A stretch of 64,000 bases of DNA from an uncultured virus (IMG/VR IMGVR_UViG_2839031043_000001) (Duplodnaviria; Heunggongvirae; Uroviricota; Caudoviricetes), in IMG/VR virus record IMGVR_UViG_2839031043_000001; one strand, 5' to 3'. Positions 1 to 18,768 of this stretch are shown here, piece by piece. The notes under the pieces are model-generated. The model was not told where the DNA came from. It made no database searches and worked only from the letters and a program-made list of their open reading frames with translations. The stretch's first letter is position 1. Each line of letters begins with the position of its first letter. Made by a program: the position numbers and the translations under genes.

Positions 1-85
1 CTAACCGTCATCCCTTTCTATTTGAGTTAAGTGTTCCAAAACACATTATAATAAAATATGGGTGTCGGTCAAACTTGACAAGTAG

Positions 86-532
86 GTGTCCAATATGATG
101 ACTAGAACAGATATCAATTTAATTAGAACTTATTGTGAGAATTATGGCTATGAACTGCTTACAACTGAATATAAAAATCAAAAACAGAAGTTAGATTTGC
201 GCTGTCCCGAATCCCATGTCTATACTGTTACATTTAACAATTTCAAAAGAGGGGATAGATGTACAACTTGTTCTGGCAAAGGAAGTGGGTTTAATAAATA
301 TGACGCACAAAAATGGTTTTCAGATCGAAATTGTGAATTGTTAACAGACGAGTATCAGAATCAGAAGCAATTACTTGATTATCTATGTAAATGTGGTGAA
401 CCAATGAAGAATACCATGCAAAGACTAAAGAACTTTTCAAAAGACCCATATTGTCTAAAATGTAGAAGAGGTGATGCAAAAAAACAACGACACGAAGATG
501 CAAGAGAACTCTTATCAAAAATTTGGTTCTGA
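86..532 (+). CDS. Zinc-ribbon repeat protein (two LLTxEYxNQKQxL..C repeats), putative DNA-binding protein
   Basis: Duplicated unit 'ELLTTEYKNQKQKLDLRCPESH...CTTC' / 'ELLTDEYQNQKQLLDYLCKCG...CLKC'; similar units occur in phage nuclease-associated Zn-ribbon proteins. Confidence 0.6.
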   Translation: MSNMMTRTDINLIRTYCENYGYELLTTEYKNQKQKLDLRCPESHVYTVTFNNFKRGDRCTTCSGKGSGFNKYDAQKWFSDRNCELLTDEYQNQKQLLDYLCKCGEPMKNTMQRLKNFSKDPYCLKCRRGDAKKQRHEDARELLSKIWF

Positions 533-534
533 TA

Positions 535-563
535 GTATTCATACGGTTGATCTGCACATAATA
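535..563 (+). promoter_or_regulatory. Putative sigma-G/F-type forespore promoter for the SASP gene
   Basis: GTATT(535-539)-17 bp-CATAATA(557-563) resembles the GNATR..CATNNTA consensus; imperfect -35. Confidence 0.4.
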
Positions 564-594
564 ATCTCTAACTTTTAATCATAGGGGTGAATAT

Positions 595-783
595 ATGACT
601 AGATCCAATCGTCTTCTTAATGGACAAGCCATAATAGCCTTAAATCAGCTTAAGTACGAGATTGCAAATGAATTTGGAGTAACACTAGGGGCAGAAACTA
701 CAAGCCGTCAAAATGGCTCTGTAGGGGGAGAGATGACTAATAGGCTAGTCCAATTAGCCGAATCTCAAATGAATAAGTTCTAA
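595..783 (+). CDS. ssp: Alpha/beta-type small acid-soluble spore protein (SASP)
   Basis: Hallmark motifs [10 protein letters not shown] and [24 protein letters not shown]; terminator follows. Confidence 0.95.
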
Positions 784-791
784 ATCAAATT

Positions 792-814
792 ATCCCTCAA
801 TATGAGGGATTTTT
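792..814 (+). terminator. Rho-independent terminator
   Basis: ATCCCTCA/TGAGGGAT stem followed by T-run. Confidence 0.8.
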
Positions 815-1008
815 ATTTATATATTTGAAAATTCAATAACAAAAGGCGAAATGCAGGTTATATAAGGTGGTAAAACGGGTATATAATCAGTAATCTAATT
901 CCAATCATAGCATTTAGGCGATATAAAAGTTTTTGCACAAAATCCATGATTGGAACTGCTTAACATACTTGATAAAATTTATCTAACACAAACATAAGGA
1001 GTTGCATC

Positions 1009-1683
1009 ATGGAAATAGTCAAATTCTTGTTCTTTTCATCCCTAGAATATCTATCCATCTTGTTCATGTTATCTGTATTGTTTCGTCTCTCATTTAAAGA
1101 GAACCTACCGCCATTCATTTTTATAGCGATAATACTTAATTTAGTTTCTTATTTTTCAAGATTTTCTGCTCAAATAGGGAGCTACGCTGTATTCCTCCAA
1201 GTCATCCTTTTGATTTCGTGTATCGTATTAATAATGAGAATTCATTGGTTCTATGCAGCTTCGATGGCGTTAATACCAAGTATTGGATTTTTAGTGGTAC
1301 AAGGGATTATCTTTTATATCCTAGACAGTTTATCACTCTTTAATTTGGCTGATGATGTAGGATCAGATGGAACAATTACATTTTGGGCGTATATGCTTCA
1401 GTTATTCACTGCAACTGTTTACACATTGCTTGCTTTAATTGCAAAATACTTAAACTATGGATGGTCTTTTGTGCCGCAAAGGGTTAAGCGAATAAATTTG
1501 AATCAACGTGACAACAAATTAATGCTATTAGGAATGATCATGAGTGTAGTGTTTTTACTGGTAATGCGTTATGCTGGTTTATCAGGTGGGGTATACTTGT
1601 TGATTAATTGCGTGGGTATGTTGATGTGTTATATCCTACTGTTTTGGGTATTTCATAAAAAGGAGCAGAGTTTTGATTTTTAA
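1009..1683 (+). CDS. Orphan multi-TM AgrC/AloC-like peptide receptor (membrane domain only, no histidine kinase)
   Basis: About 7 hydrophobic segments; paralog of 3889..4584 (FSSLEYL N-terminus, WFYA, LQ..T, FVP motifs). Confidence 0.75.
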   Translation: MEIVKFLFFSSLEYLSILFMLSVLFRLSFKENLPPFIFIAIILNLVSYFSRFSAQIGSYAVFLQVILLISCIVLIMRIHWFYAASMALIPSIGFLVVQGIIFYILDSLSLFNLADDVGSDGTITFWAYMLQLFTATVYTLLALIAKYLNYGWSFVPQRVKRINLNQRDNKLMLLGMIMSVVFLLVMRYAGLSGGVYLLINCVGMLMCYILLFWVFHKKEQSFDF

Positions 1684-1708
1684 CACCTTCTCAATGAAGG
1701 TGTTTTTT
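1682..1708 (+). terminator. Rho-independent terminator
   Basis: AACACCTTC/GAAGGTGTT stem plus T-run. Confidence 0.8.
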
Positions 1709-1818
1709 AATTGAAAAACCGTTTATAATTCTAAATCCTTCCTATGCCGTTTTGGACGATCAAAATAATAAGAAACACCCCATGAAAGATATCATAGAGT
1801 GATTCCTATTTTTTTGAT

Positions 1819-2352
1819 TTAGTTTGTGCAAGTCCAATCAAGAGTGAAATCATGTAAGTCAATATTAATCATTTCATGATTTACTTTTTGTAGTATAATT
1901 TTATTCTCCATTGCAATATGCATATCCATAAGTTGCATACTCGCAGCATACAAAGCATCTTCTTTTCGTATCGCTAGGTCTAAATTGACAATCAATTTAA
2001 GTATACCAAATGTTTTACCAGAATCATAGTCCAGCCATATAATGTCAAAATCGCCTACGCCTAAAGCATATTCATTGCTATCTAATGTGCGAACTGCAAT
2101 AGTTGAAATGTGTAAGTTGTTGTTGTTTAATTTGAAACGTGCCTCTTCATAGCTCTCTGTATTTAAAGAAATATTTAAAATAAACTCACCAAAAACTCTA
2201 GTGAGGGGATTTACATCGTAAAAAAGATGGGTTACACTAGCGATAGTCATAAATAGACAGACCTCCAGAATTTCTACTTTGGGGTTTGGCATCCCTATCG
2301 ATCCGCCAAGATAACTAGGGGTGCCATTTGTATTTATAAAGACAATTTTCAT
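1819..2352 (-). CDS. Hypothetical protein translationally coupled to the LytTR gene
   Basis: 177-aa ORF; ATGA overlap with the 2349..2681 stop. Confidence 0.6.
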   Translation of the reverse strand: MKIVFINTNGTPSYLGGSIGMPNPKVEILEVCLFMTIASVTHLFYDVNPLTRVFGEFILNISLNTESYEEARFKLNNNNLHISTIAVRTLDSNEYALGVGDFDIIWLDYDSGKTFGILKLIVNLDLAIRKEDALYAASMQLMDMHIAMENKIILQKVNHEMINIDLHDFTLDWTCTN

Positions 2353-2681
2353 TTAGTATTAGTCTCTGCCAATGCTTCCTTGACTAATGGAATTCTTGTT
2401 CTTGCAACACTTAGCATGCTGCCATCATTGAGATGGACAACTTGAAGTTTTGAATCAAATTCTTTAATGGCATCTTTTCTTACCAGTATTCCAGAATCGA
2501 TTCGAATAAATGTAGATCCCAATAACAGTATCCAATCATCCAGCGCGGTAATTTGATAGAAAGTCCCATTGCTCGTGTGCACCACAATATCATTTTTTTG
2601 ACGTTGGACATTGTTAATATCTTTAATATCAATCCAATGAATTTGTGAGCCATCTGAATTAATTACAGGAACTTTCACCAT
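2349..2681 (-). CDS. Stand-alone LytTR DNA-binding protein (AloA-like) #2
   Basis: 'IDIKDI...FIRIDSGILVRKDAIKEFD...VHLNDGSMLSVARTR' LytTR pattern; no receiver domain; RBS GGAGG. Confidence 0.8.
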   Translation of the reverse strand: MVKVPVINSDGSQIHWIDIKDINNVQRQKNDIVVHTSNGTFYQITALDDWILLLGSTFIRIDSGILVRKDAIKEFDSKLQVVHLNDGSMLSVARTRIPLVKEALAETNTK

Positions 2682-2832
2682 AACCTCCTCCGTTATCCGA
2701 CCTCTAATATTTTGTCAACAACAAATTGCATATGTGTTTTGTTCTTGACATAAGAATATCATATTATTTCCAGATCGGTAACTACTAGAAAATGCACAAA
2801 ATCAAACGTTGACATCATAACAGATTTATAGT

Positions 2833-2863
2833 AAGAGGTACATGTTTAGTTCATGTACCTCTT
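2833..2863 (-). terminator. 12-bp perfect hairpin at the end of the agr-like operon
   Basis: AAGAGGTACATG(2833-2844)/CATGTACCTCTT(2852-2863), overlapping the LytTR #1 stop. Confidence 0.6.
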
Positions 2864-3219
2864 CTTAATTCATCTAATTTGTTTTCTATATTTTTTTTCT
2901 TTGATAGTGATGCTGTAGTTCGCTCTCCATTCCCAAAGTAAATAATTCTATCTTTTGAGTCAAATCCTTCAATGTAGCGAGAATTAACGAGTATACCTTT
3001 TTCACTCAACACAAAGTCATCGTTGTCATATGATGCTCTAATAGCATCAAGCATGATATCTGCATCTGTTATTGTAGCATACTCCCCGTCTGTAGTGTGG
3101 AAGTGGAGTATCCTTTTATCTGTTGCATTTACTTTCTTGATCATGTAGACATCATTAAGATCAATGACTTTGTATCTCGTTCCTCCTTCTCCCACACGTA
3201 CACACAGGTGTTTGTACAT
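2851..3219 (-). CDS. Stand-alone LytTR DNA-binding protein (AloA-like) #1
   Basis: 'IDLNDVYMI...FVLSEKGILVNSRYIEGFD..IIYFGNG..SLSK' LytTR pattern; paralog of 2349..2681; directly downstream of agrD. Confidence 0.8.
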   Translation of the reverse strand: MYKHLCVRVGEGGTRYKVIDLNDVYMIKKVNATDKRILHFHTTDGEYATITDADIMLDAIRASYDNDDFVLSEKGILVNSRYIEGFDSKDRIIYFGNGERTTASLSKKKNIENKLDELRRGT

Positions 3220-3235
3220 TGTAAGTCTCCTCTTA

Positions 3236-3373
3236 TTATTTCTTAAGTAGCTCTTTTGGCACTTTAGGTTGGTGTACTAATGATGCTGAAAGGGGAGTCG
3301 CGATAATAGTTGCTAAAGCTGCAAGTGCAGTGGAAGCGTAATGTGCGACATTAGCCTTACTGAGTTTTTTCAT
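3236..3373 (-). CDS. agrD: AgrD/AloP-type cyclic lactone autoinducer precursor, 45 aa MKKLSKANVAHYASTALAALATIIATPLSASLVHQPKVPKELLKK (missing from the ORF track)
   Basis: Translated by hand; RBS GAAGGGAGGT; amphipathic leader, S-x4 core and HQPxxPxEL tail typical of AgrD; overlaps the agrB stop. Confidence 0.92.
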   Translation of the reverse strand: MKKLSKANVAHYASTALAALATIIATPLSASLVHQPKVPKELLKK

Positions 3374-3902
3374 TCCATTCACCTCCCTTCGTGATTAACA
3401 GTGTTATCGCTTGTACAAAAAACGCTTTAGTTAAAATATCTGACATGAATAAAAAGTTTGAGGCAACCAAAAGAATAGACAACAATTTTAAAGACGGATA
3501 ATGCTTTGCTGTAAAGATTCTTGATTGATTTATTCCAATAGGTGCCAACCAAGCAATAAGTATAATAGAAGCAATCATTAAACGTATTCCCGAGTAATAG
3601 TCAAGTGGAATCAATGGTAAAGCTACAGCACCAATAATGCTAGATAGGGTACACGCTTCAGCCGTTTTAAAATGATATCCTCCCGAAATAGATCTCAATG
3701 AAACAAATGCAAAAATAGTGAGTAATGTTTCTATTAGGGTTCCAAGTAGAGCAGAGAATAGCATTGAGAAAGCAATTGCTGAACCTGTACCAATAACAGC
3801 GATTAATGAGTATTTCATTACCTCTACACTGGCTGTGTCTTGGGGATTGGCATCTTTTATTTTCTGTGCTATTTTTTCTGCTGCATTTTCAATCATACTC
3901 AA
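3357..3902 (-). CDS. agrB: AgrB membrane peptidase/cyclase
   Basis: 'LRSISGGYHFKTAEAC' with catalytic His and Cys; 'LAP' motif; multi-TM. Confidence 0.93.
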   Translation of the reverse strand: MSMIENAAEKIAQKIKDANPQDTASVEVMKYSLIAVIGTGSAIAFSMLFSALLGTLIETLLTIFAFVSLRSISGGYHFKTAEACTLSSIIGAVALPLIPLDYYSGIRLMIASIILIAWLAPIGINQSRIFTAKHYPSLKLLSILLVASNFLFMSDILTKAFFVQAITLLITKGGEWNEKTQ

Positions 3903-4584
3903 TTAAATTCCTCTTTCTGCACAGATAATAGATTATAAAAATGACTAAGACATAAAACACAAGAATCGGATACTGCAACAAAGGTGTTCTATTAAACACA
4001 TATAAAAAGATTACAGTAATGGCGACTGATAAAAGTTGTGCTACGAATAACCATCTGTTCTCTTTAAGGTTCCAAACTGGTCTGGAGGATTCAGGCACAA
4101 ATTCAAACCACAATTCAAATTTACGTATCAACTTACATAAAATCAAAACGACAATGACTGTAATAGTTTGTAATACAAATCCTATTACTGAAATGCCTGA
4201 TCCTGAAGAACTTTGAAGGTCAGCAAGATAGTTCAAGGTACCAAACTTTTGTAAAACTATGAATATTAATGCCTGAATTAATGTGTACGTTGTCCAAGGG
4301 AATAATGTAATGATGCCAGCATAGAACCATTGAATATTCCACACGTATCTAAACCCGAGCATTAGAAAAAGATTTTGAACAAAAATGGCAGCAAACATTC
4401 CCCACCAATATTCATCAATCCCTAAGCCATACCTAAATATGTGGGATGCTAGGTTTAGACAAACGATTACAAAAAATATCTGCCCCTTGTACTCTCTAAG
4501 CGGGAAATTGAACCAAGTAAAGATAAAGACAAACATAGCCAAATACTCAAGTGAAGAAAACAAAGTAAATAGGATAAATTCCAT
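3889..4584 (-). CDS. AgrC/AloC-like multi-TM peptide receptor lacking a histidine kinase domain
   Basis: About 7 TM segments; first gene of the operon, overlapping agrB; no HisKA/HATPase sequence. Confidence 0.8.
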   Translation of the reverse strand: MEFILFTLFSSLEYLAMFVFIFTWFNFPLREYKGQIFFVIVCLNLASHIFRYGLGIDEYWWGMFAAIFVQNLFLMLGFRYVWNIQWFYAGIITLFPWTTYTLIQALIFIVLQKFGTLNYLADLQSSSGSGISVIGFVLQTITVIVVLILCKLIRKFELWFEFVPESSRPVWNLKENRWLFVAQLLSVAITVIFLYVFNRTPLLQYPILVFYVLVIFIIYYLCRKRNLIEYD

Positions 4585-4680
4585 TTTTCTTCCCCATTCT
4601 ATTCTCTAAAATTAGTATCCTATGTAGATTGTACCATTATGTATAAACATTGGGAGGTGCAAGTTTCCTTTTTTATAAAC

Positions 4681-5359
4681 CCAGAGTATATGGCTACAAG
4701 AGACATGTGTTTACTACTGAACCACACAAACTTTATGACTGCTAAAGTCATAAAGATACGCTTTTTTTATCAGTGAAATTAGAGCAAAGGAAGATAATAT
4801 ACGGATGGGAATATCCAATTTATGTTCGACACCACTTTGAATGAAATGAGAGTTAGTAGAAACTAAGTAGCATATAAAGCGAAAGTTAGACTCAGTTGAA
4901 TATAAACTGGGCAAAGTTTACACCATTGAAGATATTTTTTGTAGAAGGGGTATAGATTAATTACCCTGAAACCTAGCATAAATAAACCATCTCAAATTTT
5001 ATGAGGTCACTGAAAGAGTCTCATAGCTACACCAAAGGTTCAGTCACTCATTAAACAATGAGGAAACTGTGCCTTTTTTCTATATATTGATTCATCACAA
5101 GGGAGATCACAGAGGTTTAGGTATAGACCAATCTGCACTTTTTTATATTCATTGGTATCTTGTAGAATCAATATGCATTTACACACATGCAACAGGATAT
5201 CTAAACATCTGCCAATATCCATAGATATATTAAAGCGACGACTTTGTATTGTAGGTGTCCTCTAGTTGGAGTAGCAGAATTGGATAGATTAGAGGTCATG
5301 GGATTAACTCCATCCGGGTCAATAAGCTCATGAGCAATTAAGTATATGGTATACTTTGG
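4681..5359 (+). ncRNA. Candidate large, ornate structured ncRNA (~680 nt; ROOL/GOLLD-like size class)
   Basis: No credible ORF; 5'/3' closing helix 4681-4690/5350-5359; more than 10 internal helices and at least 2 pseudoknots found by eye; wobble pairs are G-U on the + strand. Confidence 0.7.
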
Positions 5360-5381
5360 AAAACGTTACGAGAGGTTAGAC

Positions 5382-6593
5382 ATGTCTGTCAAATTGGAGT
5401 TTGCAGAGCTTGAATCTAAACTGATACATATATCAGATCGAATTTGCAAAGATGAAACATACCTTTGTCCATTGTGTAAACAAGAAGTCATAGCACGTAA
5501 AGGGACTAAAAGACGGCACCACTTCTCACATAAACCTGACAGTGAATGTTCAGCGAACGAGGAAACGTTATTACATTTTAATGCGAAGAATTACTTGGCT
5601 TATTGTGTGTCCAGTAACTATAAGCTAGACGATATAACGTTCAATATCCCAACTGACTTACTGGATGAGTCTATCCAAAAGGTTTTAAACATTTTAGGTA
5701 TTCGTTATTATCCTTTGTCATTGGATAAGTTAAATTCATTTTATTATTTTTATAAAGCAAAAACAGAGCAACGAGTGGATAACTTTATAGCTGATGTTCT
5801 TGTTAATTGTGTAGAGCATAGGGTTGTCCATCCATACGGTTATTATGATAGTAGTGTTGGATATGACGTAAAAGAGATTGATCATGGCAAGTTTGTGTTT
5901 GAGATGAAAGTAACTCATGATATGGGTGAAGAGAAAAGAAACAGTTTACTCAAATCACGAATCCCATTTATTGAAGCAGTGCCAGAGCAAACAGATAATG
6001 GTTTTACTTACTGGGTTACATCATTATCACGGTTATTAGCAATGGATGACACAAAGAATAACTTAGTTCAATTTTTGAGTATTCTTTTCAAGGATGAATT
6101 GATTCAAGTAGGAAAACAAATGTACGACCATGTTAGAGAAAAAGAGCTTATGAAAAATGCTATTGAGCATGCAATTGACAATGTGGATGGATTAAACTTA
6201 CGCGACTACATAAGTAGGGAGCAGTTCAATAGTATTAACACATTAACAGCACAAGCGTATAAATCAGAAGTGAAGAGAATCAGCACATTGCATAGCATGA
6301 GATACAAGACAAGTCAACAAGGTGCCAACTTCATCTCTGTCAATGAACATTGGTCATGGAGTAGAGGTGACAATATTCTGTATGACTTGATTAAAAAGCT
6401 TCAGGAACAGCAATATGATGTAGAAGTATTAATTGGTGGTTACAATGAAACAACCAAAGATAGAGTTGTTGGATTTCAAATTAGATTACCTGATAAACAT
6501 TTGTATGGAGAGCAACTGAAACGAGTTATTAAGGCTGGATTAATGGATTTATTGAATGAAATAGACGTAAATACTGAAAAAAATACCCCCTAG
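5382..6593 (+). CDS. CoiA-like Zn-finger + PD-(D/E)XK nuclease family protein
   Basis: CPLC..HHFSH..C, ETLLH..AK, ADVLV..FEMKVTH; likely start ATG 5382 after GAGAGG. Confidence 0.7.
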   Translation: MSVKLEFAELESKLIHISDRICKDETYLCPLCKQEVIARKGTKRRHHFSHKPDSECSANEETLLHFNAKNYLAYCVSSNYKLDDITFNIPTDLLDESIQKVLNILGIRYYPLSLDKLNSFYYFYKAKTEQRVDNFIADVLVNCVEHRVVHPYGYYDSSVGYDVKEIDHGKFVFEMKVTHDMGEEKRNSLLKSRIPFIEAVPEQTDNGFTYWVTSLSRLLAMDDTKNNLVQFLSILFKDELIQVGKQMYDHVREKELMKNAIEHAIDNVDGLNLRDYISREQFNSINTLTAQAYKSEVKRISTLHSMRYKTSQQGANFISVNEHWSWSRGDNILYDLIKKLQEQQYDVEVLIGGYNETTKDRVVGFQIRLPDKHLYGEQLKRVIKAGLMDLLNEIDVNTEKNTP

Positions 6594-6610
6594 AATTAAC
6601 TAGGGGGTAT
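6583..6610. terminator. Bidirectional hairpin between convergent genes
   Basis: ATACCCCCTAG/CTAGGGGGTAT. Confidence 0.7.
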
Positions 6611-6625
6611 AAGGTATTACCATTG

Positions 6626-8144
6626 CTACTGCTTTTTGCAAAATGGACAACTGTAAATTTTACCATTACTTCTATGCCTTGAGTTGGGACTGGCTTGCCA
6701 TTCATGCCCACGTATACATTTCCACCACACTTTTTTGTTTGAAGAAAAGGCAATATCAAATGATGTTAAGGGGTGGTTTTTGGTATTATTCCATTCATTC
6801 AACAGTGGAGACTGTTTAAACCCGAGACTTTTACAGACCTTACATACGGCTCTATGGTTAACAACTTTACTAATTTTTCTTTTCCACTCATGCCCATTTT
6901 TACAAATCCACCAAACACTTATTCTTGATTTTGGGGCAAAATTTTCTGGTTTGAGTAATCCATTTCTATCGTAATTCCAATGAGNNNNNNNNNNCAATTT
7001 CGGGGTAAGCAGCCTTCAAACTATTCTCTTTTATATCATTTGAATACAACTGCGCAATATAAGTTTCATCTCTACTTATGTCAATAAATGAGTCCATATT
7101 ATAATTACTTAAGAGTTTGTTATTATTTTCATCACAATTTTGATTTATCCATTTAAAGATATTGACAATACAATCTTTAAGGCTTAAATAATCCGAAGCT
7201 TTTAGATGTGTTAAGACTGATGAACCATAAGGCTTTAAGCTAGGCAAGATATAATTGCCATTACATCGTATCCTAAAAAGTTTAATCCCTTTGGCAGTCA
7301 ATACCTCATTCTTTAATTCGTCTCTTTCAGATTTATTAATGTGCCAATAACCATCATATTCAATGCCTAGTCTAAGAGAAGGAATGTATACATCAATCTC
7401 AAAATTTACTTTATTATCATTAAATTTGAAGCGGTTAACAGTATCTTTAAAAATACTTTTAAAATAATAGTATATCGCCTGTTCTGGAAAAGATGTATGT
7501 AAATAACTTTTACATCTGGGACAACTTTTACCATCTTTTCTGCCTATTATTGTAGTCTCCCATTCGTGACCACATTTTTTACACAACCACCAAGCTTTTT
7601 TATGGGAATATGGTCTAACACTATCAGGTGGGTATGAGTTTTTTGTAGGATGCCATTCACTTGCAAGATCTGGATTTAATGCTAACAAGTTGACCTCATT
7701 AGTTGCTTTCTTGCCTTTACATGAAGGGCAGTCATAATTCGCCAAAGCACGACTACTAATGGATCGACGGTACTCATGACCACAACGACCAAGCCACCAC
7801 ACAATTTTCTTAGAGCCATAAGAAACATCAAACGGGGTTAAGGTGTTATTTTTTTCAGGATGCCACTCTGTAGCTAAATCAGGTTTTACTATTGCTAAAC
7901 AGTTGGCTGAACTAACCTTCTTGCCAGAGCAATAAGGACACCCGGTTTGGTTTCGCTTATTTGTTCGACTATTAACTGTAGCTTCATATAAATGACCCAT
8001 TGAACATTTCCAACTAATAACTTTCTTTGAGCCATAACTCACTTCAAACGGATTTAAGCTGCCATTCTCGTCATAATTCCACTCATTTAGTAATTGTGGA
8101 AATTTTGCACCTAGACTATTTTCTTTACTCAAGAGTACCTCCAC
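6626..8144 (-). CDS. Multi zinc-ribbon (EW..N..P..V..GS.K..WW.C..GHEW) protein with a central Vsr/DUF559-like endonuclease domain; one gene spanning an N-gap
   Basis: About 5 repeated Zn-ribbon units across both ORF fragments; 'EIDVYIPSLRLGIEYDGYWH..D..K' nuclease motif. Confidence 0.75.
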
Positions 8145-8214: not shown

Positions 8215-8529
8215 TTATTTTGATAGAGCATTCTTAAATTCCAAAACGGACTTCTCAATTAATCCCTTTAACTCAACATCAGTATATTTCAAACCCTTTT
8301 TATTTAACTCAGTTGTAATCCATTTAATGGCTTCCTCGTACTTTTGTTCTCCACCATAATCTTTAAATGCCTGCTCAACAAAACGCACACCAATTTCTAC
8401 AAGTTCCTTTTTATCACGAAACTTGGATAGGTCAATATTACGCTTGATAATATATGAGGCACCAGTAGCAACTAAAACCGTGACAATAAGTAGCAAATTC
8501 TCAAAAATATCCTTAATTAATGTATCCAT
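8215..8529 (-). CDS. Phage holin (LL-H-like)
   Basis: One N-terminal TM; 'V.FVEQ....GEQK..EA...IE..V' pattern; next to the endolysin. Confidence 0.75.
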   Translation of the reverse strand: MDTLIKDIFENLLLIVTVLVATGASYIIKRNIDLSKFRDKKELVEIGVRFVEQAFKDYGGEQKYEEAIKWITTELNKKGLKYTDVELKGLIEKSVLEFKNALSK

Positions 8530-8635
8530 GAATAATTTCCTCCAATTTAAAGTTTTGATGAATCGTGAAACCCTTGATACATAAGGGTTTTTAGTTATGT
8601 ATTTTTCGATAAAAGTGATATTTTATTGTATATTT

Positions 8636-9394
8636 TTATTTATTAGAGACTCGATCAAGTAACAAAAGTGTCAGCCATGGAAGTTCCTGATATATAGTGC
8701 CGTCATCCACACGCTTTACCCAAATGTCAGGATCGTTCAAGATACCTTTTTTGGTTAGACTCTCAATAGCTCCCTTTGCGTACTGTTTGCCTTGTTCAGA
8801 CATAATGAATTGCATAAATTTATCCTCCTTTGATTGATCAGGCTTATTTTCAACTTTGCTGTTAAGCATTTGCTTTACCAATACTTTAAAACGTACAAAC
8901 TCAGCAGGATTGTTAACCCAAGGCAATGGGCATCGCTTCCATCCAACTACCCCCTGATGTGTCCAAATATCCTTTTCAGTCAATCCATACTTTTTACAAA
9001 GAATAACCACTAACTCTGCTGCTTTTTGAAAAGTTTTCTCTGTAATGTTTCCATTCTTGTCGATACACATCTCAATCCCAATTGTGCAGTTGTTTGGATA
9101 ACTACCCAGACGATTCAGTGCTTCTGATGTATAATCTTTTGAGCCACAGTGATATGCCATTTCGTCATCTGGTATTGCTTGATATGTATTGTAATCATCA
9201 ACAGAATAATGAGCTGAAGCAAACCTTGCATCGGAAGTATCTTTTTGATATTTAAGTCCATCGAAATACTTAACTATATTGATTGCAGGAGCAGAAGGTG
9301 AAGCTGTGTAGTGCATGACTATGCCTCGAACAGACTTTAGTTTAATGGCTGGTCTTGAGAATTTATTGACAGTAATAAAATGCTGATTAATCAT
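8636..9394 (-). CDS. Endolysin, N-acetylmuramoyl-L-alanine amidase (Amidase_2)
   Basis: IVMHYTA, SAHY.VD, AYHCG, IGIEMC, HQ....K.CP motifs. Confidence 0.92.
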   Translation of the reverse strand: MINQHFITVNKFSRPAIKLKSVRGIVMHYTASPSAPAINIVKYFDGLKYQKDTSDARFASAHYSVDDYNTYQAIPDDEMAYHCGSKDYTSEALNRLGSYPNNCTIGIEMCIDKNGNITEKTFQKAAELVVILCKKYGLTEKDIWTHQGVVGWKRCPLPWVNNPAEFVRFKVLVKQMLNSKVENKPDQSKEDKFMQFIMSEQGKQYAKGAIESLTKKGILNDPDIWVKRVDDGTIYQELPWLTLLLLDRVSNK

Positions 9395-9403
9395 GACTGC
9401 CTC

Positions 9404-9849
9404 CTATATCATTAATTTTAAGAAAGACATAATTTCAGGAACCTTCATTCCTAAAGCTGTTAAAAGAATGATAAGTAAAATAAACCACAAAAATTTCCGA
9501 TCAGTCGTAATGAAAGATTGATACCACTTTGTTTTTTCCTCAGTATCATTGCTCCTGTCTTCAGATCGCATAGTTTCACTTCTGACTTTAATGGTTTGAA
9601 CGTCAATATTGACCTGATCCAATTTTTCATCCATTTTGTCTAAGCGAACATCTTGTTGTTTTGCACGTTCTTGATTTAACTCCATGATAGTAGTTTGTCG
9701 AACAGCGTTTTCTTGAAGTGATTTTAAAGTGTCAACGAGTATCTTTTGACTTTCCCTCCTTTCAATTTTGATTTCANNNNNNNNNNCACAGTTTTTTCTA
9801 AGTTTTGAACCTTAACATCTAAGGCATCAATGGATGGAGTCGGTGACAT
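9404..9849 (-). CDS. Holin-like coiled-coil protein with C-terminal TM (BhlA/XhlA-like); start 9849, broken by an N-gap
   Basis: ATG at 9849 after GAAAGG; reading frames open on both sides of the gap; C-terminal TM; lies in the lysis cassette. Confidence 0.6.
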
Positions 9850-9893
9850 GTTACTCACTGCCTTTCAATTAAAAAAGAGAGGGGAAGCCCTCT

Positions 9894-11267
9894 CTAAATG
9901 ATAAACGCATATTGATAATTACTTTTACTACTTACGTCAACAACCCTCATACTAGATAGTAAATCAGACGCCATTTTTACCTGAACAGTAATCGAGCTAT
10001 GCAAGTCATTTTGTTCACGTCCAATTACATTCATCTGACTTAACAAATCATCTGAGTATTTGACATAGATGGATGCAGGTAATTCGTTCACATACTCGAC
10101 TCTGATTCTACCCAATAAGTCATTTTTATGAGGGATTGTAATGGATGAAGCTAGATGATCATTACCACGAACGCTTAAAGCTAACAACAGATCAGAGTGA
10201 CGGGAAATCTTTTCGACAGTGAGAGAAGACAGTAAGTGTTCGTTTTTCCTAATGCTAATCGAGCTTAACAGAGAATCTGCCTTCTCAAGCTTCTTTACTG
10301 TAAAAGATGATAAGAGATCGGTTGAATCTGGAATAACAATCATGGATTGTAGACTAGACGAATCCTCAATCTTATTGATCTGCATTGAAGATAAAATGGA
10401 ACTGTTATTTTTAACTTCAACATTTAATTTAGCTGAAAGAAGGTTTTCGGCTGCTTTCTTTTCAATCCTAATTAAAGAGCGTAGGATTTCTTCTCGATAA
10501 TTACTAATTACATGTATCTTCGAGAGCAAATCAGCTTCACTTAACACTTGCACAGTGATTGATGACTCTAACTTACTCTCTCCATCATTAATCACAGGTA
10601 ATTCAAATCCCAACTCAAGCTCAGGAGGATTGTCAGATTCCCTAGTTCCAAATAGGATTGAAGCTAGTTTAGATTCATCTTCTGAGCATAGAAAAAGACC
10701 ATAGTTTGGAATGGCTTTTTGATACCATTTTGCTACTAAATTGGTAATGTCAATTTCAATAAAACCACTTTGCGATAGACCGATGTTCTTTGTGGCTACT
10801 TTGTCGCCTTGTGGTGGCTGGTTAGCCCAAGTTACATCTTTCTCTTGCCAATTTGATAAGAGGTTAAATATAGATAAATCCATGTCCCTTGAGAAAGGAC
10901 TATTATATACACGCAATATGGCTTTTTTTAACACTTTGTTTGCTGGGATGGAAGATAAATCAAACTGTATAAGGGAACGAAAAATTTCCCCATTGTATTC
11001 ATCTTTTCCAACCAGCATGCCTCGATCATTACCATAGTTTAACGTTGGTAAGTTTTCTCGGATGGTACTATCTTTAACCGGATTGAGGTAGAATCTCTCA
11101 AGTGGTCTTTCAAGGACATCAAATTTACCTACCATGCGATTAACTGGTGGAATAGTGATGGAGCTGATTAAGTCATTGTTACCACCAATTTTCACAGAGA
11201 TGCTAGATAAAATGTCATTTTCCCTGTACCCCCACACAAGAAACTTACCAGACATTTTATTATTCAT
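9894..11267 (-). CDS. Tail-associated protein with a DNRLRE/CBM96-like domain and C-terminal DLLSSxxV repeats
   Basis: 'KDSTIRE..PTLNYG...RSLIQFDLSSIP...A.L...W.E..VTWANQP...DIT.LV..W...NYG...P.L'. Confidence 0.75.
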   Translation of the reverse strand: MNNKMSGKFLVWGYRENDILSSISVKIGGNNDLISSITIPPVNRMVGKFDVLERPLERFYLNPVKDSTIRENLPTLNYGNDRGMLVGKDEYNGEIFRSLIQFDLSSIPANKVLKKAILRVYNSPFSRDMDLSIFNLLSNWQEKDVTWANQPPQGDKVATKNIGLSQSGFIEIDITNLVAKWYQKAIPNYGLFLCSEDESKLASILFGTRESDNPPELELGFELPVINDGESKLESSITVQVLSEADLLSKIHVISNYREEILRSLIRIEKKAAENLLSAKLNVEVKNNSSILSSMQINKIEDSSSLQSMIVIPDSTDLLSSFTVKKLEKADSLLSSISIRKNEHLLSSLTVEKISRHSDLLLALSVRGNDHLASSITIPHKNDLLGRIRVEYVNELPASIYVKYSDDLLSQMNVIGREQNDLHSSITVQVKMASDLLSSMRVVDVSSKSNYQYAFII

Positions 11268-11297
11268 TCACGCACAACCTTCTCATTGTATTGAGAA

Positions 11298-13502
11298 TTA
11301 CACTGGGTCAGCATTGACGACTATCTCAAAGGTTCCACTATGAGGTTTATCATCCTTATTAGTCACTACTCTAACAAAAACGGGAACTTCTTGTTCGTTT
11401 TCAAGGGTTCGAGTGTATGATATCTGATCTTCAGGTGTAAAAGGGGAGTCTGTTTTCGATAGTTGTATTACTGATTTGGAGTTGTTTGCACCTGCATTCA
11501 TCGTTAACAGTAAATTATGAATGGGGAAGCCATTTTTATTTACAACTCGAACCTTCTTGGGAAGAGTAGTTTGTCCACCTGTAATACGTCCAAAATCCAT
11601 ATAGTTTAAGACGTTGCCGATATTATCAGAAAAGTATTTGCCGCTTTCATCTACAAACATTAGTCCTGAATAATCTCCAAGAAAGTTAATAGCAAGATTA
11701 CTCGCCTTACCGAATTCATCTTCTGCAATAATTTCAAGTAGATTCATCCCGCCAAGGGTGATATCACTAGCATTAATAAAATAATCAAATGTTGAAGGTG
11801 CTTGAAAGAGTGGAGTGAAATCACCTGTTGCTGGATGTACTTGTTTCTTATTGATACTAACCTTAAATCTAACCTTATCTAATTCATTGTCCCCAATCTG
11901 AAGGTGCAACTTCTGACCCTTTACAGTAGCAATCAGTGTTGGCTCAGTATCATATAAAGTAATTGTGCCATAGTTAGTAGCTAAGGCTGAATTAAAAGCT
12001 TCTTCAGCTATTACGGTAATTTTGTATGGACTAATGGAATTTAAAAATGCACTAGATATAATAACAGAATCACTCACTGTTTGATCAGTAAGCTCTGTCC
12101 AATCTTTTAAGGTGTGCGTATTATTGAAGTCCACTTTGTATCGATATTTAGATGAAGGTATTCCTGATATTGTTGCAACTTTAATTACGTCCGAAGCGAA
12201 CATTTCTAAAAATCCAATAGATACATAATCTTGATTTCCATCTACACGATATACTCTAATCCCGTATTTTTGATAAGGAGCAGTGTTAGGAATATCCCAA
12301 GCTCTTGGTATTGTATTTACCCAACCTGTTGAATTAGTTATACTTAAAAGCACAATCCACTGACTTCCGTCCCAAGCAATAAAATCAAAGTCTTTTGGAC
12401 TTGCATTAATATTAGTGGAGCCTTTGATTCTAATACGTGAGATGATTTTGGGGGTGGGAAACTCATACATTAAAGTCTCTGGGTTACTTGGTGTGGGAAC
12501 TTTGCTTGAATACCAACAGCCCTCAACTGCCGCATCTGGAGTGAATGCTTGCCATGCATCATACCTGCTAGGGATTAACACGGAAGATGCACTTGCGATT
12601 CCACTTGGAGTTGTATTAGATGTCATCGTTGGTATGACAGTGCTTGGCGTGGATTCAGGCTTTTTATCATGCCAAAATAACAATTCTGGCTTACGACTGG
12701 TCAGTTGAGAGATAGCATTATTTGCAGGATCAAGAATTTCATCTAGCTTGTCCAGACCTTCACTTAAATACATCGCATCAGTAGTGGTTGAACCTAGTGG
12801 TTTCCAAGAGCCATTTTTGTAAGTTTTTATCGTATCATTATCTTTGATCAAATACTTTTCTTTAAAAAAATCTATTTCACTTTCCATGTAAGTTGGGGGG
12901 TTCCAAGTTCCACCATTTCCTACCCAGTTAAGATGATTTGCAGTGCTTGTTAAATCTTTTGGCGTCCCAGTACCCTCATCAAATGTCCATAGAGATTGAA
13001 GTCCAACTTCAGTACCAAGAAGCCTTTTTTTCATATTTTTACTTATTTGATCTTGCGTTCTCGCCGTATTCCAAATCCTTACTTCATCCATAAGACCTTT
13101 AAATCGATAGGCACCCGGCAAGTTTACGGGATTATGATTAGGTCTTCCTGCAATATAACATTGAATGCTTCCCACGTTCAAATTTAAACTACCACTACCA
13201 GCTTGCTCTCCGTTTCTATATAAGACTACCGACCCATTTGAATGAGTAATTGCAATATGCTGCCAAACTTGATTTGTAAGAATACCACCAAAGTTAAGAT
13301 TATTGCCAGACGAATTTGATAAAATAATATACCCGTTGCCATTAATTGTAGACTGAAAAGTAGGATAAATACCAAATAAACTACCAAAGTCAAAATTAAC
13401 TGGTTTAATCCACATTTCAATAGTCCACGTTGCGCCAAATGTTATATTTTTCTGAGGTAGCACCATAGACGTTCCATCAAAATTTAAAGCATATCCCGAC
13501 AT
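11298..13502 (-). CDS. Tail/receptor-binding protein with LamG (concanavalin-like) and discoidin-like domains
   Basis: WTIEMWIK..WQHIAIT..FKGLMDEVRIWN; 'PTMTSNTTPSGIASASS..AWQAF..SPKDF..WDGSQW'. Confidence 0.8.
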   Translation of the reverse strand: MSGYALNFDGTSMVLPQKNITFGATWTIEMWIKPVNFDFGSLFGIYPTFQSTINGNGYIILSNSSGNNLNFGGILTNQVWQHIAITHSNGSVVLYRNGEQAGSGSLNLNVGSIQCYIAGRPNHNPVNLPGAYRFKGLMDEVRIWNTARTQDQISKNMKKRLLGTEVGLQSLWTFDEGTGTPKDLTSTANHLNWVGNGGTWNPPTYMESEIDFFKEKYLIKDNDTIKTYKNGSWKPLGSTTTDAMYLSEGLDKLDEILDPANNAISQLTSRKPELLFWHDKKPESTPSTVIPTMTSNTTPSGIASASSVLIPSRYDAWQAFTPDAAVEGCWYSSKVPTPSNPETLMYEFPTPKIISRIRIKGSTNINASPKDFDFIAWDGSQWIVLLSITNSTGWVNTIPRAWDIPNTAPYQKYGIRVYRVDGNQDYVSIGFLEMFASDVIKVATISGIPSSKYRYKVDFNNTHTLKDWTELTDQTVSDSVIISSAFLNSISPYKITVIAEEAFNSALATNYGTITLYDTEPTLIATVKGQKLHLQIGDNELDKVRFKVSINKKQVHPATGDFTPLFQAPSTFDYFINASDITLGGMNLLEIIAEDEFGKASNLAINFLGDYSGLMFVDESGKYFSDNIGNVLNYMDFGRITGGQTTLPKKVRVVNKNGFPIHNLLLTMNAGANNSKSVIQLSKTDSPFTPEDQISYTRTLENEQEVPVFVRVVTNKDDKPHSGTFEIVVNADPV

Positions 13503-14861: not shown

Positions 14862-15370
14862 TTAAGTAAAAGTATAAGAGCAACGTACATTGAACAGATG
14901 CGTTCCAGCCTGAACATTCAATCCCAAAATAGCCTTCAATTCAACTTCTGCGAAGTTTGCTGCACTAGCTGCTTTGTCTCCCGTATTTTTGGAGCCTTTG
15001 ATTACTCCACTAGGTTGTCCACTTGCTTTAATCATTCGTCCGTCATTAATTCCATTTCCACCAATAGGACTGAAATTCACTTCGCTGTTTGAAATTACTT
15101 TCGTGTAAATCCATTTGCCTGTAACAACTGGACTATTAGAGCCACCAGAGGTGTCTACAGTTGTAATGACACAATCATTCATATTAGATACATCATTACT
15201 CGCATCACCATAGTTATTCCAAATCAAAACTTTAAAAGGATTTGATTCAGAATTAGATTGTACTGTGCCAAGATTCCATGCGACATTCCCTGCNNNNNNN
15301 NNNCACCAGCAAGTTCCTTAAGGTCTGATTGATTGTCGCCTGTTCGCCATGTGACTTTTGGATCAGCCAT
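14862..15370 (-). CDS. Tail-module structural protein; true start ATG 15370 (MADPKVTW...), broken by an N-gap
   Basis: RBS AAGGAGG upstream of 15370; reading frame open downstream of the gap. Confidence 0.6.
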
Positions 15371-16619: not shown

Positions 16620-17078
16620 TTAGCCACCAATAAATACATTCGAAGAACCATCAGCAATTGTGGTAGTAGGAGTAGAGTGTGTTTTGACAGTACTTCCAAC
16701 AGTGGCAACCAACTGACCACCTGAAAATACATTTTTGGCATTTCCAATGGTTACTTTACCTGTTCCACCAGTATGATTACTGACAGGTTCTCCGGGAACT
16801 TGTGGTGTTTCAGTTTCCGTAACGCTGTCATTTACTCTTGATATGGGCTTTCCATTTACAAAGACGTTTGGTGAAGTAGCAACAACAGTACCATGAATGG
16901 TTGAGCTACCACCTGAAAAATAGTCCCAGCCACCCACACATACTTCATAACATTCTCTATCCTCACCTGAGCCTGAACATTGCTCAACTGTACGCTGGCA
17001 AGGGTTCCATACTCGATACTCAATGTCATTCGTTTGAACGTTAGTTGTTTTACTTCCGTTAAAAGCAACTGCTGGCAT
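16620..17078 (-). CDS. PAAR-repeat spike-tip protein
   Basis: MPAVA..; SPNVFVNGKPISRVND; NVFSGGQLVATVG; IADGSSNVFIGG. Confidence 0.85.
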   Translation of the reverse strand: MPAVAFNGSKTTNVQTNDIEYRVWNPCQRTVEQCSGSGEDRECYEVCVGGWDYFSGGSSTIHGTVVATSPNVFVNGKPISRVNDSVTETETPQVPGEPVSNHTGGTGKVTIGNAKNVFSGGQLVATVGSTVKTHSTPTTTIADGSSNVFIGG

Positions 17079-18445: not shown

Positions 18446-18682
18446 TCATTTGTTAAGTTGAGGATTATCTGTTCTTCCGAGTAGGTAATCTATAGAGACG
18501 TTAAAGTGCTCGGCAGTTTTGTAAACAACCTCTAAGCTTACAGGCTTTCTCATTTTTTCAATGTTCCCAACGGAACTTTTTGTAAGCCCAATAATCTCAC
18601 CCATTTTTTCAAGAGTAAGATTGTTATCTTTTCTCAATTTCATAATTCGTTCAGANNNNNNNNNNAAAACAGGATGTAACAT
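18446..18682 (-). CDS. XRE/Cro-CI HTH repressor; likely start ATG 18682
   Basis: 'LRKDNNLTLEKMGEIIGLTKSSVGNIE...FNVSIDYLLGRTD'; RBS AAGGAG. Confidence 0.9.
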   Translation of the reverse strand: MLHPVXXXXSERIMKLRKDNNLTLEKMGEIIGLTKSSVGNIEKMRKPVSLEVVYKTAEHFNVSIDYLLGRTDNPQLNK

Positions 18683-18694
18683 GAAAAATTCTCC

Positions 18695-18753
18695 TTGACC
18701 GTGTTCATAGTGAACACCTATAATGAAAAACAAATAGTGTTCTTTATGAACAC
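18695..18753 (+). promoter_or_regulatory. Sigma-A promoter with two palindromic operators GTGTTC-N5-GAACAC
   Basis: TTGACC(18695)-18 bp-TATAAT(18719); operators at 18701-18717 and 18737-18753. Confidence 0.8.
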
Positions 18754-18768
18754 AATAAACAAAAGGAG

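What the first reader, a model, noticed from the sequence alone, without database searches (positions are those of the whole stretch)
2851..4584. Complete agr/Alo-like peptide quorum-sensing operon in an SPbeta-like phage
Seen: a minus-strand operon in the order receptor (TM only), agrB (GGYH..C), agrD and stand-alone LytTR. The first three genes overlap. There is no kinase or receiver domain anywhere in it. Known: this architecture matches the agr-like (Alo) operons of Paenibacillus polymyxa chromosomes, whereas SPbeta-group phages use arbitrium (aimR/aimP). No arbitrium genes occur in this window. Inference: a phage communication system based on a cyclic peptide and phosphorylation-independent signalling (membrane sequestration of LytTR), possibly controlling lysis-lysogeny or host sporulation.
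Basis: partly seen in the sequence, partly recalled or inferred. Interest (0 to 1): 0.9.

Follow-up and report, generated by a model that had tools for sequence, protein, structure and literature searches.

The report
Kinase-less agr peptide-signalling operon in prophage
A large SPbeta-like prophage carries an intact operon that should make a cyclic signalling peptide. The usual sensor kinase and phospho-regulator are replaced by a bare seven-helix sensor protein and bare DNA-binding proteins, a widespread wiring that nobody has tested.

Summary
On the minus strand lie a 231-aa seven-helix membrane protein, AgrB, a Ser-type AgrD and a LytTR-only protein. They are tightly packed, with no kinase or receiver domain. 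The operon runs further than reported: a second LytTR-only gene and a 177-aa ORF follow, and a second membrane-protein paralog sits nearby on the plus strand.

The phage shares SPbeta hallmark genes (YonO-like, YomG_N, YonK).

- "Alo" systems are RRNPP systems, not agr-like.
- The same cassette is already in published Brevibacillus and Paenibacillus phages and was noted in passing in 2014. This scan has reported it at least four times on other DNA.
- The cassette is mostly chromosomal: 57 of 59 related loci have the membrane protein directly before AgrB, and the family is in 102 of 151 sampled genomes of the order.
- A collinear relative of this phage (about 90% nucleotide identity) carries an arbitrium-like receptor-propeptide pair outside the region this window covers. 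So agr need not replace arbitrium.

New support for the "receptor" reading: the membrane protein matches, over its full length, the sensor domain of histidine kinases that sit beside AgrB in three genomes.

How the signal reaches LytTR is untested.

The parts
3889..4584 (-). Seven-helix membrane protein (231 aa), a candidate peptide sensor without a kinase
   Evidence: ORF. phrog_15604, E 2e-15. No Pfam or NCBIfam family. AF2 pLDDT 92.8, seven long helices. The family has 230 representatives at E <= 1e-3. Its profile matches the N-terminal domains of agr-linked histidine kinases at E 1.6e-44 and 2.2e-38.
3357..3902 (-). AgrB-type membrane peptidase/cyclase (181 aa)
   Evidence: PF04647, E 4.5e-22. 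phrog_10353. R70, G75, H77, C84 invariant in 8 of 8 aligned sequences.
3236..3382 (-). AgrD precursor (48 aa). Predicted five-residue ring SASLV closed through Ser (a lactone), followed by HQPKVPKELLKK
   Evidence: TIGR04223, 31.6 bits against a cut-off of 19. The same column holds Ser in 20 and Cys in 14 of 52 AgrD-like ORFs found at 65 AgrB loci.
2851..3219 (-). LytTR-only DNA-binding protein 1 (122 aa)
   Evidence: PF04397, 35.3 bits. 95% identical to a Brevibacillus brevis X23 protein.
2349..2681 (-). LytTR-only protein 2 (110 aa), the copy closer to the LytTR of other cassettes
   Evidence: PF04397, 42.8 bits. BLASTP E 4e-14 and 2e-13 to the cassette LytTRs of L006 and L014. LytTR-1 scores only 1e-5 and 0.03 against the same two.
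1819..2352 (-). 177-aa ORF that overlaps the end of LytTR-2 by 4 nt. Function unknown; possibly an output gene
   Evidence: No family. Atlas hits all below 0.9.
1776..1801 (-). Terminator-like hairpin ending the six-gene minus-strand unit
4585..4760 (-). Upstream region with the likely operon promoter. A terminator-like hairpin at 4755-4731 lies just above it
   Evidence: The block TTGCACCTCCCAAT...TGGTACAAT is conserved in L004.
1009..1683 (+). Second copy of the seven-helix membrane protein (224 aa), convergent with the operon
   Evidence: 28% identity, E 2e-21. phrog_15604, E 1.5e-16.
856..886 (+). Direct repeat GGTTATATAA-N11-GGGTATATAA (21-nt period) upstream of the paralog. Candidate LytTR site, unverified
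   Evidence: It is the only such site in the window, but the search pattern was derived from this site, so the statistic is circular.

Best explanation
This is a self-contained, kinase-less agr-type peptide-signalling operon carried as an accessory module in the arm beyond the lysis genes of an SPbeta-like prophage, probably of a Brevibacillus host.

**Shown**
- AgrB has its catalytic His and Cys.
- AgrD has the family's C-terminal recognition tail and a Ser where relatives have Ser or Cys.
- The membrane protein belongs to a family that serves as the N-terminal sensor domain of histidine kinases beside AgrB-AgrD in three genomes.
- The only regulators in the operon are LytTR domains without receivers.

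**Inferred**
- AgrB cuts AgrD and closes a five-residue Ser lactone (SASLV), which is exported.
- The seven-helix protein binds the peptide outside the cell.
- It passes the signal to the LytTR-only proteins without phosphotransfer. The most likely route is holding or releasing them at its conserved cytoplasmic loop (the FVP motif around P164), as in LytTR regulatory systems.
- The freed LytTR then switches on the operon, the second sensor gene and unknown targets.
- The peptide most likely reports lysogen density to the lysogen. It is probably not the phage's main lysis-lysogeny switch.
For: **Cassette conservation**
- Of 59 genome loci found with the cassette AgrB, 57 have a stand-alone membrane-protein ORF directly before AgrB.
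- 47 of the 59 have a LytTR-only ORF of 108-164 aa as the first ORF after AgrD (Pfam E <= 1e-4).
- Only 1 of the 59 (L018) has a REC+LytTR regulator among the first two downstream ORFs.

**Sensor homology**
- Full-length matches to kinase N-termini: L024, E 1.6e-44 and 2.2e-38, both with HATPase_c.
- The same layout occurs in G036 and G050.

**Phage context**
- The same four genes are in phages Abouo gp44-47, Emery gp54-57 and Harrison gp38-41 and in 4 IMG/VR records.
- All ORFs are intact and 93-95% identical to relatives.
- GC is uniform with the phage.

**Sensor to regulator ratio**
- Two sensors and two LytTRs share one AgrBD here and in L004. The same ratio occurs independently in L043.

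**Precedent**
- Membrane control of LytTR-only regulators is documented in LytTR regulatory systems (PMC6193735; abstract and section 9 read).
Against: - No test of binding between the membrane protein and LytTR was possible, and none of peptide chemistry or expression.
- The membrane protein shows no detectable similarity to a canonical AgrC-type kinase of L005 (hhalign probability 0.25), and it has no solved-fold relative.
- Two related phage-like records (L005; L006, which is the same contig as L018) carry a REC+LytTR regulator and a GHKL kinase right after the cassette. The sensor may therefore work with a kinase in some contexts.
- One library protein fuses the membrane protein to AgrB (P0088), and the two genes overlap. 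That would also fit a role in peptide processing.
- No LytTR-type direct repeat with 20-22 nt spacing lies upstream of the cassette itself.
- Across 61 upstream regions the enrichment is weak: 7 loci at 20-21 nt against 2.2 expected from shuffles.
- The prophage ends are not in the window. In the relative G001 the cassette sits in the last 3.6 kb of a predicted provirus.
Confidence: 0.55

Rival explanations
1. Split receptor. The seven-helix protein is only the sensor half and signals through a sensor-less kinase and a REC+LytTR regulator encoded elsewhere in the host or phage. The LytTR-only proteins act as phosphorylation-independent competitors or co-regulators at the same DNA boxes.
For: In L006 (the same contig as L018, Brevibacillus gelatini, 136 kb) the cassette is followed by a 265-aa REC+LytTR protein and a 277-aa GHKL kinase. 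BLASTP aligns residues 4-65 of that kinase, a hydrophobic stretch, to the start of the L014 protein. L005 has a REC+LytTR protein and a 437-aa kinase. In Brevibacillus reuszeri a 207-aa relative of that short kinase remains, with a faint GHKL hit at E 0.027.
Against: Only 1 of 59 genome loci has a receiver-containing regulator among the first two downstream ORFs, while 47 of 59 have the LytTR-only gene. No kinase or receiver is in the 64-kb window. The rest of the genome could not be searched because no genome is held.
Confidence: 0.2
2. The membrane protein is a helper of AgrB (export, second cleavage or self-protection) and not a receptor. The LytTR-only proteins are constitutive regulators, or they respond to something else.
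For: The gene overlaps agrB by 14 nt and precedes it directly in 57 of 59 loci. A 408-aa library protein fuses the two.
Against: The family forms the N-terminal membrane domain of histidine kinases, which is where sensors sit, at E 1.6e-44 and 2.2e-38. A second copy in this window stands alone without an AgrB. Some genomes hold up to 18 copies. The fusion protein may be a frameshift or a gene-calling merge of overlapping genes.
Confidence: 0.1
3. One reading: the cassette is the phage's own lysis-lysogeny communication system, taking the place of arbitrium.
For: In Abouo, Harrison and L007 the cassette lies next to integrase and repressor genes. No arbitrium gene is in this window.
Against: Here the cassette lies beyond the holin and endolysin genes, in a variable accessory arm whose intervening genes differ between the window and L004. 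The collinear relative G001 has a helix-turn-helix receptor plus a secreted propeptide ending DPGGGW. G002 and G003 have homologous pairs. Where the downstream genes gave Pfam hits, the related chromosomal loci sit among cellular genes such as HflX, PrkA, MatE and SLH nucleotidase.
Confidence: 0.15

Closest known systems
Staphylococcal-type agr quorum sensing (agrBDCA)
   Same: An AgrB with catalytic His and Cys. An AgrD with a five-residue ring position and a PxEL tail. A LytTR DNA-binding output.
   Different: No AgrC kinase and no receiver domain. The sensor is a separate 231-aa protein with no detectable similarity to a canonical AgrC-type kinase. The gene order is sensor-B-D-regulator. 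The ring residue is Ser.
LytTR regulatory systems (HdrRM, BrsRM of Streptococcus mutans; PMC6193735)
   Same: A LytTR-only regulator co-transcribed with a membrane protein and no phosphotransfer.
   Different: In those systems the regulator gene comes first, the membrane proteins belong to other families, and no peptide-making genes are attached. Their hallmark 9-bp repeats with a 12-bp spacer just above the -35 were not found upstream of this operon.
Cassettes of Brevibacillus phages Abouo (gp44-47), Davies and Emery, and Paenibacillus larvae phages Harrison and Paisley
   Same: The same four genes in the same order. AgrB is 33-34% identical and the membrane protein is 24% identical over its full length. 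Hargreaves et al. [quoted passage not shown]
   Different: Those are 44-58 kb phages with the cassette beside the integrase. Here the carrier is an SPbeta-like phage of roughly 160 kb, with the cassette beyond the lysis genes and with a second LytTR and a second sensor. Those phage AgrDs lack Ser or Cys at the ring position. In the passages I read, the paper does not link these cassettes to a LytTR gene.
phiCDHM1 agr3 of Clostridioides difficile phage (PMC3901668)
   Same: Phage-borne agrB and agrD plus a sensor gene.
   Different: phiCDHM1 has an AgrC of 453 aa and no regulator. This window has a regulator and no kinase.
Arbitrium (AimR-AimP) of SPbeta-group phages
   Same: Peptide communication encoded by a temperate Bacillales phage.
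   Different: Arbitrium is a cytoplasmic TPR receptor with a linear hexapeptide, an unrelated family. It is absent from this window. A look-alike pair is present in the relative G001, scoring 23 bits against NF038310 where the cut-off is 70.
   Same: The N-terminal 200 or so residues belong to the same family as the window's membrane protein.
   Different: There the domain is fused to a kinase core and paired with a REC plus LuxR-type regulator (GerE hit weak, E 0.0012). No LytTR-only gene follows AgrD.

Membership tests
agr quorum sensing (AgrBDCA) | AgrB membrane peptidase with catalytic His and Cys | tested here: met
   PF04647, E 4.5e-22. H77 and C84 invariant in 8 of 8. That these two residues are catalytic is recalled, not taken from a call.
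agr quorum sensing (AgrBDCA) | AgrD precursor with a ring-forming Cys or Ser five residues before the cleavage site and a conserved C-terminal tail | tested here: met
   TIGR04223, 31.6 bits against a cut-off of 19. Ser aligns with Ser or Cys in 34 of 52 relatives. The cleavage site is inferred.
agr quorum sensing (AgrBDCA) | AgrC receptor histidine kinase (GHKL ATPase domain) | tested here: not met
   No HATPase domain in any of the 69 window ORFs scanned.
agr quorum sensing (AgrBDCA) | AgrA response regulator (receiver plus LytTR) | tested here: not met
   Two LytTR domains of 122 and 110 aa with no Response_reg domain.
LytTR regulatory systems | LytTR-only regulator co-transcribed with a membrane protein | tested here: met
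   The gene order is reversed relative to the S. mutans type.
LytTR regulatory systems | The membrane protein inhibits the regulator | not testable with these tools
LytTR regulatory systems | Direct repeats with a spacer of about 12 bp just upstream of the operon's -35 | tested here: inconclusive
   None upstream of the cassette at 9-mers with up to 1 mismatch and 20-22 nt spacing. One 21-nt-period repeat lies upstream of the paralog. Weak enrichment across 61 loci.
Alo systems of Paenibacillus polymyxa | AloR receptor (helix-turn-helix plus TPR) with AloP linear secreted peptide (RRNPP type) | tested here: not met
   PMC7425212 passages. No TPR or RRNPP-like frame in the window.
Arbitrium (AimR/AimP) | AimR receptor and AimP propeptide | tested here: not met
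   No match in the window's 117 frames. The window covers only part of the phage.
SPbeta-like phages | Shared hallmark genes (YonO RNA polymerase, YomG, YonK) and a large temperate genome | tested here: met
   YonO-like protein 52% identical to SPbeta, phi3T and relatives, and 57.6% to Clostridium phage D-1873. YOMG_N and YonK. The relative provirus is 163 kb. No nucleotide similarity for window 1-8000.

The most novel reading that the evidence does not exclude
The seven-helix protein is a receptor for a cyclic peptide that gates a LytTR transcription factor directly, with no kinase. That would be a new way of transducing an agr signal. Phages of this lineage would then run two separate peptide languages at once: an arbitrium-like RRNPP pair in the early region and this agr-like operon in the accessory arm, reporting lysogen density.
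Probability: 0.3. Interest if true: 0.8.

Novelty: new variant of a known kind. Interest (0 to 1): 0.55.

Why it matters
agr signalling is understood only as a two-component phosphorelay. A widespread version with a bare sensor and a bare LytTR domain would be a second transduction mechanism for cyclic peptides. The family is in 102 of 151 sampled genomes of the order. The kinase-fused relatives found here give an evolutionary anchor and a natural control for experiments. Its presence on several unrelated temperate phages suggests that prophages use it to sense or manipulate lysogen populations. In this lineage it may sit alongside an arbitrium-like system, which makes these phages a testable case of two communication channels in one virus.

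Tried and rejected
- **Nucleotide search of phages.** Window 1-8000 gave no match. tblastn of the membrane protein against 50,697 phage records gave no match at 1e-3, although pairwise BLASTP to Abouo gp44 is significant.
- **Word-based homolog searches.** They found only near-identical proteins: 1 hit each.
- **Fold searches of the membrane-protein model.** Foldseek against the PDB: best E 0.4. VIA-align wide: only a helical hairpin at residues 165-231, Z up to 8.7, inside the noise range the tool gives for helical proteins. This shows neither a new fold nor a relationship.
- **hhalign of the family against one AgrC-type kinase.** Probability 0.25. The target was a single sequence, so this is a weak test.
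- **The window's own genome.** None is held, so att sites, host kinases and an RRNPP pair in this very phage could not be checked.
- **Sequencing runs.** No RNA holder is listed and no reads were laid.
- **The 177-aa ORF.** No family. Atlas scores are below 0.9 and the Atlas's own model has pLDDT 0.35. No similarity to the Brevibacillus 207-aa kinase remnant.
- **Rfam and tRNA scans of the window.** Nothing found.
- **The 17-nt direct repeat at 4862-4878 and 4890-4906** (28-nt spacing). The first copy is not conserved in L004, so I dropped it.
- **Methyltransferase and MatE in Cohnella loci.** From their sizes I first took the 255-282-aa and 448-464-aa ORFs downstream of Cohnella-type cassettes for a regulator and a kinase. 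Pfam showed methyltransferases and MatE transporters.
- **Literature.** Searches for the cassette as a unit found only the 2014 remark and gene-table entries (PMC4909266 and PMC4168068, passages read). Subscription journals and supplements were not searched.
Full report
**What is in the sequence**

The minus strand between 4584 and 1819 holds six closely spaced ORFs.
- A 231-aa membrane protein (3889-4584).
- AgrB (3357-3902; PF04647, E 4.5e-22).
- A 48-aa AgrD (3236-3382; TIGR04223, 31.6 bits against a cut-off of 19).
- A 122-aa protein that is only a LytTR domain (2851-3219; 35.3 bits).
- After a 169-nt gap, a second LytTR-only protein of 110 aa (2349-2681; 42.8 bits).
- An overlapping 177-aa ORF without any family (1819-2352).

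The first two genes overlap by 14 nt and the next two by 26 nt. AgrD and LytTR-1 are 16 nt apart. A terminator-like hairpin follows the last ORF (1801-1776), and another lies about 150 nt upstream of the first gene (4755-4731).

A 224-aa paralog of the membrane protein lies convergently at 1009-1683 (28% identity, E 2e-21).

None of the 69 window ORFs scanned has a kinase ATPase or a receiver domain.

**The phage**

The rest of the window is phage DNA. It holds a holin and an amidase endolysin (8215-9394), tail and tape-measure genes, a terminase-like protein, two tyrosine recombinases, a helicase and a primase.

The 866-aa protein at 50363-52963 is 52% identical to the YonO-like genes of SPbeta, phi3T and relatives, and 57.6% identical to one in Clostridium phage D-1873. 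Pfam finds YOMG_N and YonK.

An IMG/VR provirus of 163 kb (G001, CheckV 100%) is collinear with the window at about 90% nucleotide identity. It has the same cassette with a 93% identical membrane protein.

"SPbeta-like" is fair as a statement about gene content, though there is no nucleotide similarity to any listed phage for 1-8000.

LytTR-1 is 95% identical to a Brevibacillus brevis X23 protein, and the nearest chromosomal cassettes are in Brevibacillus. The host is therefore probably a Brevibacillus.

GC is 33-36% throughout the window, cassette included. Brevibacillus chromosomal flanks run at 45-47%. This fits the cassette being part of the mobile DNA. However, the att sites are not in the window, and in G001 the cassette lies in the last 3.6 kb of a predicted provirus.

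**The cassette is a conserved unit, mostly chromosomal**

*In phages.* AgrB finds 8 phage records representing five phages: Abouo, Davies, Emery, Harrison and Paisley. In the three I opened, the order is membrane protein, AgrB, small peptide, then a protein of about 120 aa annotated "peptidase" or hypothetical. Abouo's copy aligns weakly to LytTR-1, and LytTR-1 also matches phrog_15081, the family labelled 'peptidase'.

*In chromosomes.* A scan of one genome per species with the cassette AgrB gave 59 loci in Brevibacillus, Cohnella, Paenibacillus, Chengkuizengella and metagenome-assembled genomes.
- 57 of 59 have a stand-alone membrane-protein ORF directly before AgrB.
- 47 of 59 have a LytTR-only ORF as the first ORF of 85 aa or more after AgrD.
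- Four more have an ORF of 112-121 aa there with a weak hit or none.
- Only L018 has a receiver-containing regulator among the first two downstream ORFs.

*Neighbours.* Where Pfam named them they are cellular: HflX, PrkA, MatE, methyltransferases, an SLH nucleotidase, and Sda-like sporulation inhibitors in three loci.

*Breadth.* The membrane-protein family has 230 representatives at E <= 1e-3 in the 50%-clustered library. It occurs in 102 of 151 sampled genomes of the order, with up to 18 copies in one genome.

**Is the membrane protein a receptor?**

It has no Pfam family. The model is confident (pLDDT 92.8) and shows seven long helices. No solved relative was found. It shows no detectable similarity to one canonical AgrC-type kinase.

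The decisive lead came from L024 (Chengkuizengella marina). Two tandem histidine kinases of 466 and 454 aa lie directly upstream of AgrB-AgrD there. Their residues 8-214 match the family profile end to end at E 2.2e-38 and 1.6e-44, and both have HATPase_c.

The same layout (regulator, one to three such kinases, AgrB) occurs in two further genomes. One of those kinases is 57% identical over its full length to a kinase of L024.

Of the 150 listed matches in the order sample, 6 lie in frames of 456-477 aa. The rest lie in frames of 214-273 aa (132 further matches were not listed).

The stand-alone protein is therefore a homolog of a kinase sensor domain in the same genomic context.

Against this, one library protein fuses it to AgrB, and the two genes overlap. 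That would also fit a role in peptide processing.

**The peptide**

The window's AgrD ends ...TPLSASLVHQPKVPKELLKK. Of 65 AgrB loci examined, 52 have an AgrD-like ORF by my pattern. The residue five positions before the [H/Y/F/N][Q/R/S]P motif is Ser in 20 and Cys in 14.

By analogy with agr, the ring would be SASLV closed as a lactone. This is an inference.

The remaining 18, mostly Paenibacillus, have neither Ser nor Cys there and carry a Lys one position later. The phage Abouo, Harrison and Emery peptides also lack a Ser or Cys at the ring position.

**How the signal reaches DNA**

This step is not shown. The closest documented logic is the LytTR regulatory system, in which a membrane protein holds a LytTR-only regulator inactive (PMC6193735; abstract and section 9 read).

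Points in favour:
- the constant pairing of sensor and LytTR-only genes;
- two sensors with two LytTRs around one AgrBD, here and independently in L043;
- a nearly invariant Pro in the loop between helices 133-155 and 177-197 (P164). I read this loop as cytoplasmic from the positive-inside rule, not from a tool. Both kinase-fused forms lack the Pro at the aligned position.

Points against or open:
- No 9-mer repeat with 20-22 nt spacing lies upstream of the cassette.
- A GGTTATATAA-N11-GGGTATATAA repeat lies upstream of the paralog, but its uniqueness test is circular.
- Across 61 upstream regions, 20-21 nt spacings occur in 7 loci against 2.2 expected from mononucleotide shuffles.
- L005 and L006/L018 carry a REC+LytTR regulator and a GHKL kinase after the cassette, and Brevibacillus reuszeri keeps a degenerate piece of that kinase. 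A split-receptor arrangement with a kinase elsewhere therefore cannot be excluded.

LytTR-2 is closer than LytTR-1 to the LytTR of other cassettes. LytTR-1 therefore looks like the divergent extra copy.

- Alo systems are RRNPP receptor-peptide pairs (PMC7425212).
- The absence of arbitrium genes is true for the window, but the window ends at a point matching about 103.7 kb of G001.
- At 72 kb, G001 has a 448-aa protein with a significant helix-turn-helix, a weak TPR hit, and 23 bits against the AimR model (cut-off 70).
- Seven nucleotides after that gene comes a 31-aa ORF, MKAAKAKLLMALAYIVPVALVILQQDPGGGW.
- G002 and G003 have homologous receptors (27-53% identity) followed by small ORFs ending DPGDGW and DDGERG.
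- This looks like an arbitrium-type pair. It argues that the agr-like operon is an additional, accessory channel.

**Prior knowledge**

Hargreaves et al. 2014 already remarked on agr cassettes in Abouo, Davies and Emery, with membrane proteins that may be AgrC homologs lacking the ATPase domain. The phage genome papers list AgrB only in tables.

My four searches found no functional study and no description that includes the LytTR gene. Supplements and subscription journals were not covered.

This scan has reported the same cassette type on other DNA at least four times.

**Verdict**

This is a real, intact member of a widespread but uncharacterised kinase-less agr variant, here on an SPbeta-like prophage. 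The receptor role of the membrane protein gains support from the kinase-fused homologs. The mechanism of transduction and the biological output remain open.

Noticed in passing
L009:553-1899 (-) and L009:451-546 (-); L011:1375-2739 (+) and 2745-2867 (+); L010:646-2001 (-) and 452-565 (-): Three phage-like records that carry the cassette also encode a receptor-like protein of about 450 aa (helix-turn-helix, weak TPR). Each is followed by a small ORF with a signal-peptide-like start, ending DPGGGW, DPGDGW or DDGERG. This is a candidate arbitrium-like RRNPP family.
   Followed up: partly
AgrD was seen in L024 only. A canonical AgrC-type kinase (Pfam-confirmed in L024 only) lies convergently.
   Followed up: partly
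L046:8103-8387, L047:9107-9376, L061:9095-9361: In three Paenibacillus loci the gene after the LytTR-only gene has an Sda (sporulation inhibitor A) domain. This hints at a sporulation output in some chromosomal cassettes.
   Followed up: no
L021, L022, L025, L029, L038, L056, L060 (about 9200-11500 in each): In these seven loci (six from Cohnella, one from a metagenome-assembled genome) the cassette is followed by a SAM methyltransferase and a MatE transporter. They may modify or export the peptide.
   Followed up: no
L033, L037, L046, L048 and others (AgrD ORFs listed): 18 of 52 AgrD-like peptides, mostly from Paenibacillus, have no Ser or Cys at the ring position and carry a conserved Lys one residue later (...LKPxxHSPEAPKELRK). 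That suggests a different ring chemistry or a linear peptide.
   Followed up: no
L014:9325-9948: A 207-aa Brevibacillus reuszeri protein after the cassette. BLASTP aligns its hydrophobic N-terminal stretch (residues 7-72) and a faint GHKL remnant to the 277-aa short kinase of B. gelatini. It may be a decaying kinase.
   Followed up: partly
P0088 (library protein, 408 aa): The membrane-protein family (residues 7-214) fused to an AgrB domain (242-382). It is either a genuine fusion or a merge of overlapping genes.
   Followed up: no
window 595-783 (+) and 86-532 (+): An alpha/beta-type small acid-soluble spore protein gene and a CapR-domain protein lie at the left edge of the window. Neither is present in the relative G001.
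   Followed up: partly
window 5346-6593 (+), 6626-8144 (-): A CoiA-N-terminal-domain protein and two ORFs, the larger with DUF4379 treble-clef zinc-finger repeats (also hitting HNH-endonuclease PHROGs), lie between the cassette and the lysis genes. L004 has different genes there, so this arm is variable.
   Followed up: no
window 16620-17078 (-), 18446-19596: A PAAR-motif protein sits within the tail module. An XRE repressor and a divergent Bro-N/KilAC antirepressor are embedded among the tail genes.
   Followed up: no
window 6985-6994, 9777-9786, 15294-15303, 18090-18099, 18656-18665, 29902-29911, 35643-35652, 57048-57057: Eight runs of exactly 10 N interrupt the window. Two fall inside long ORFs (the DUF4379 protein and the tape-measure protein).
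   Followed up: no
L018 and L006: The 136,134-nt contig 13 of Brevibacillus gelatini DSM 100115 is the same record as an IMG/VR 'linear' viral contig. Its GC is about 32-33%, so the whole contig may be a phage or a plasmid-prophage.
   Followed up: no
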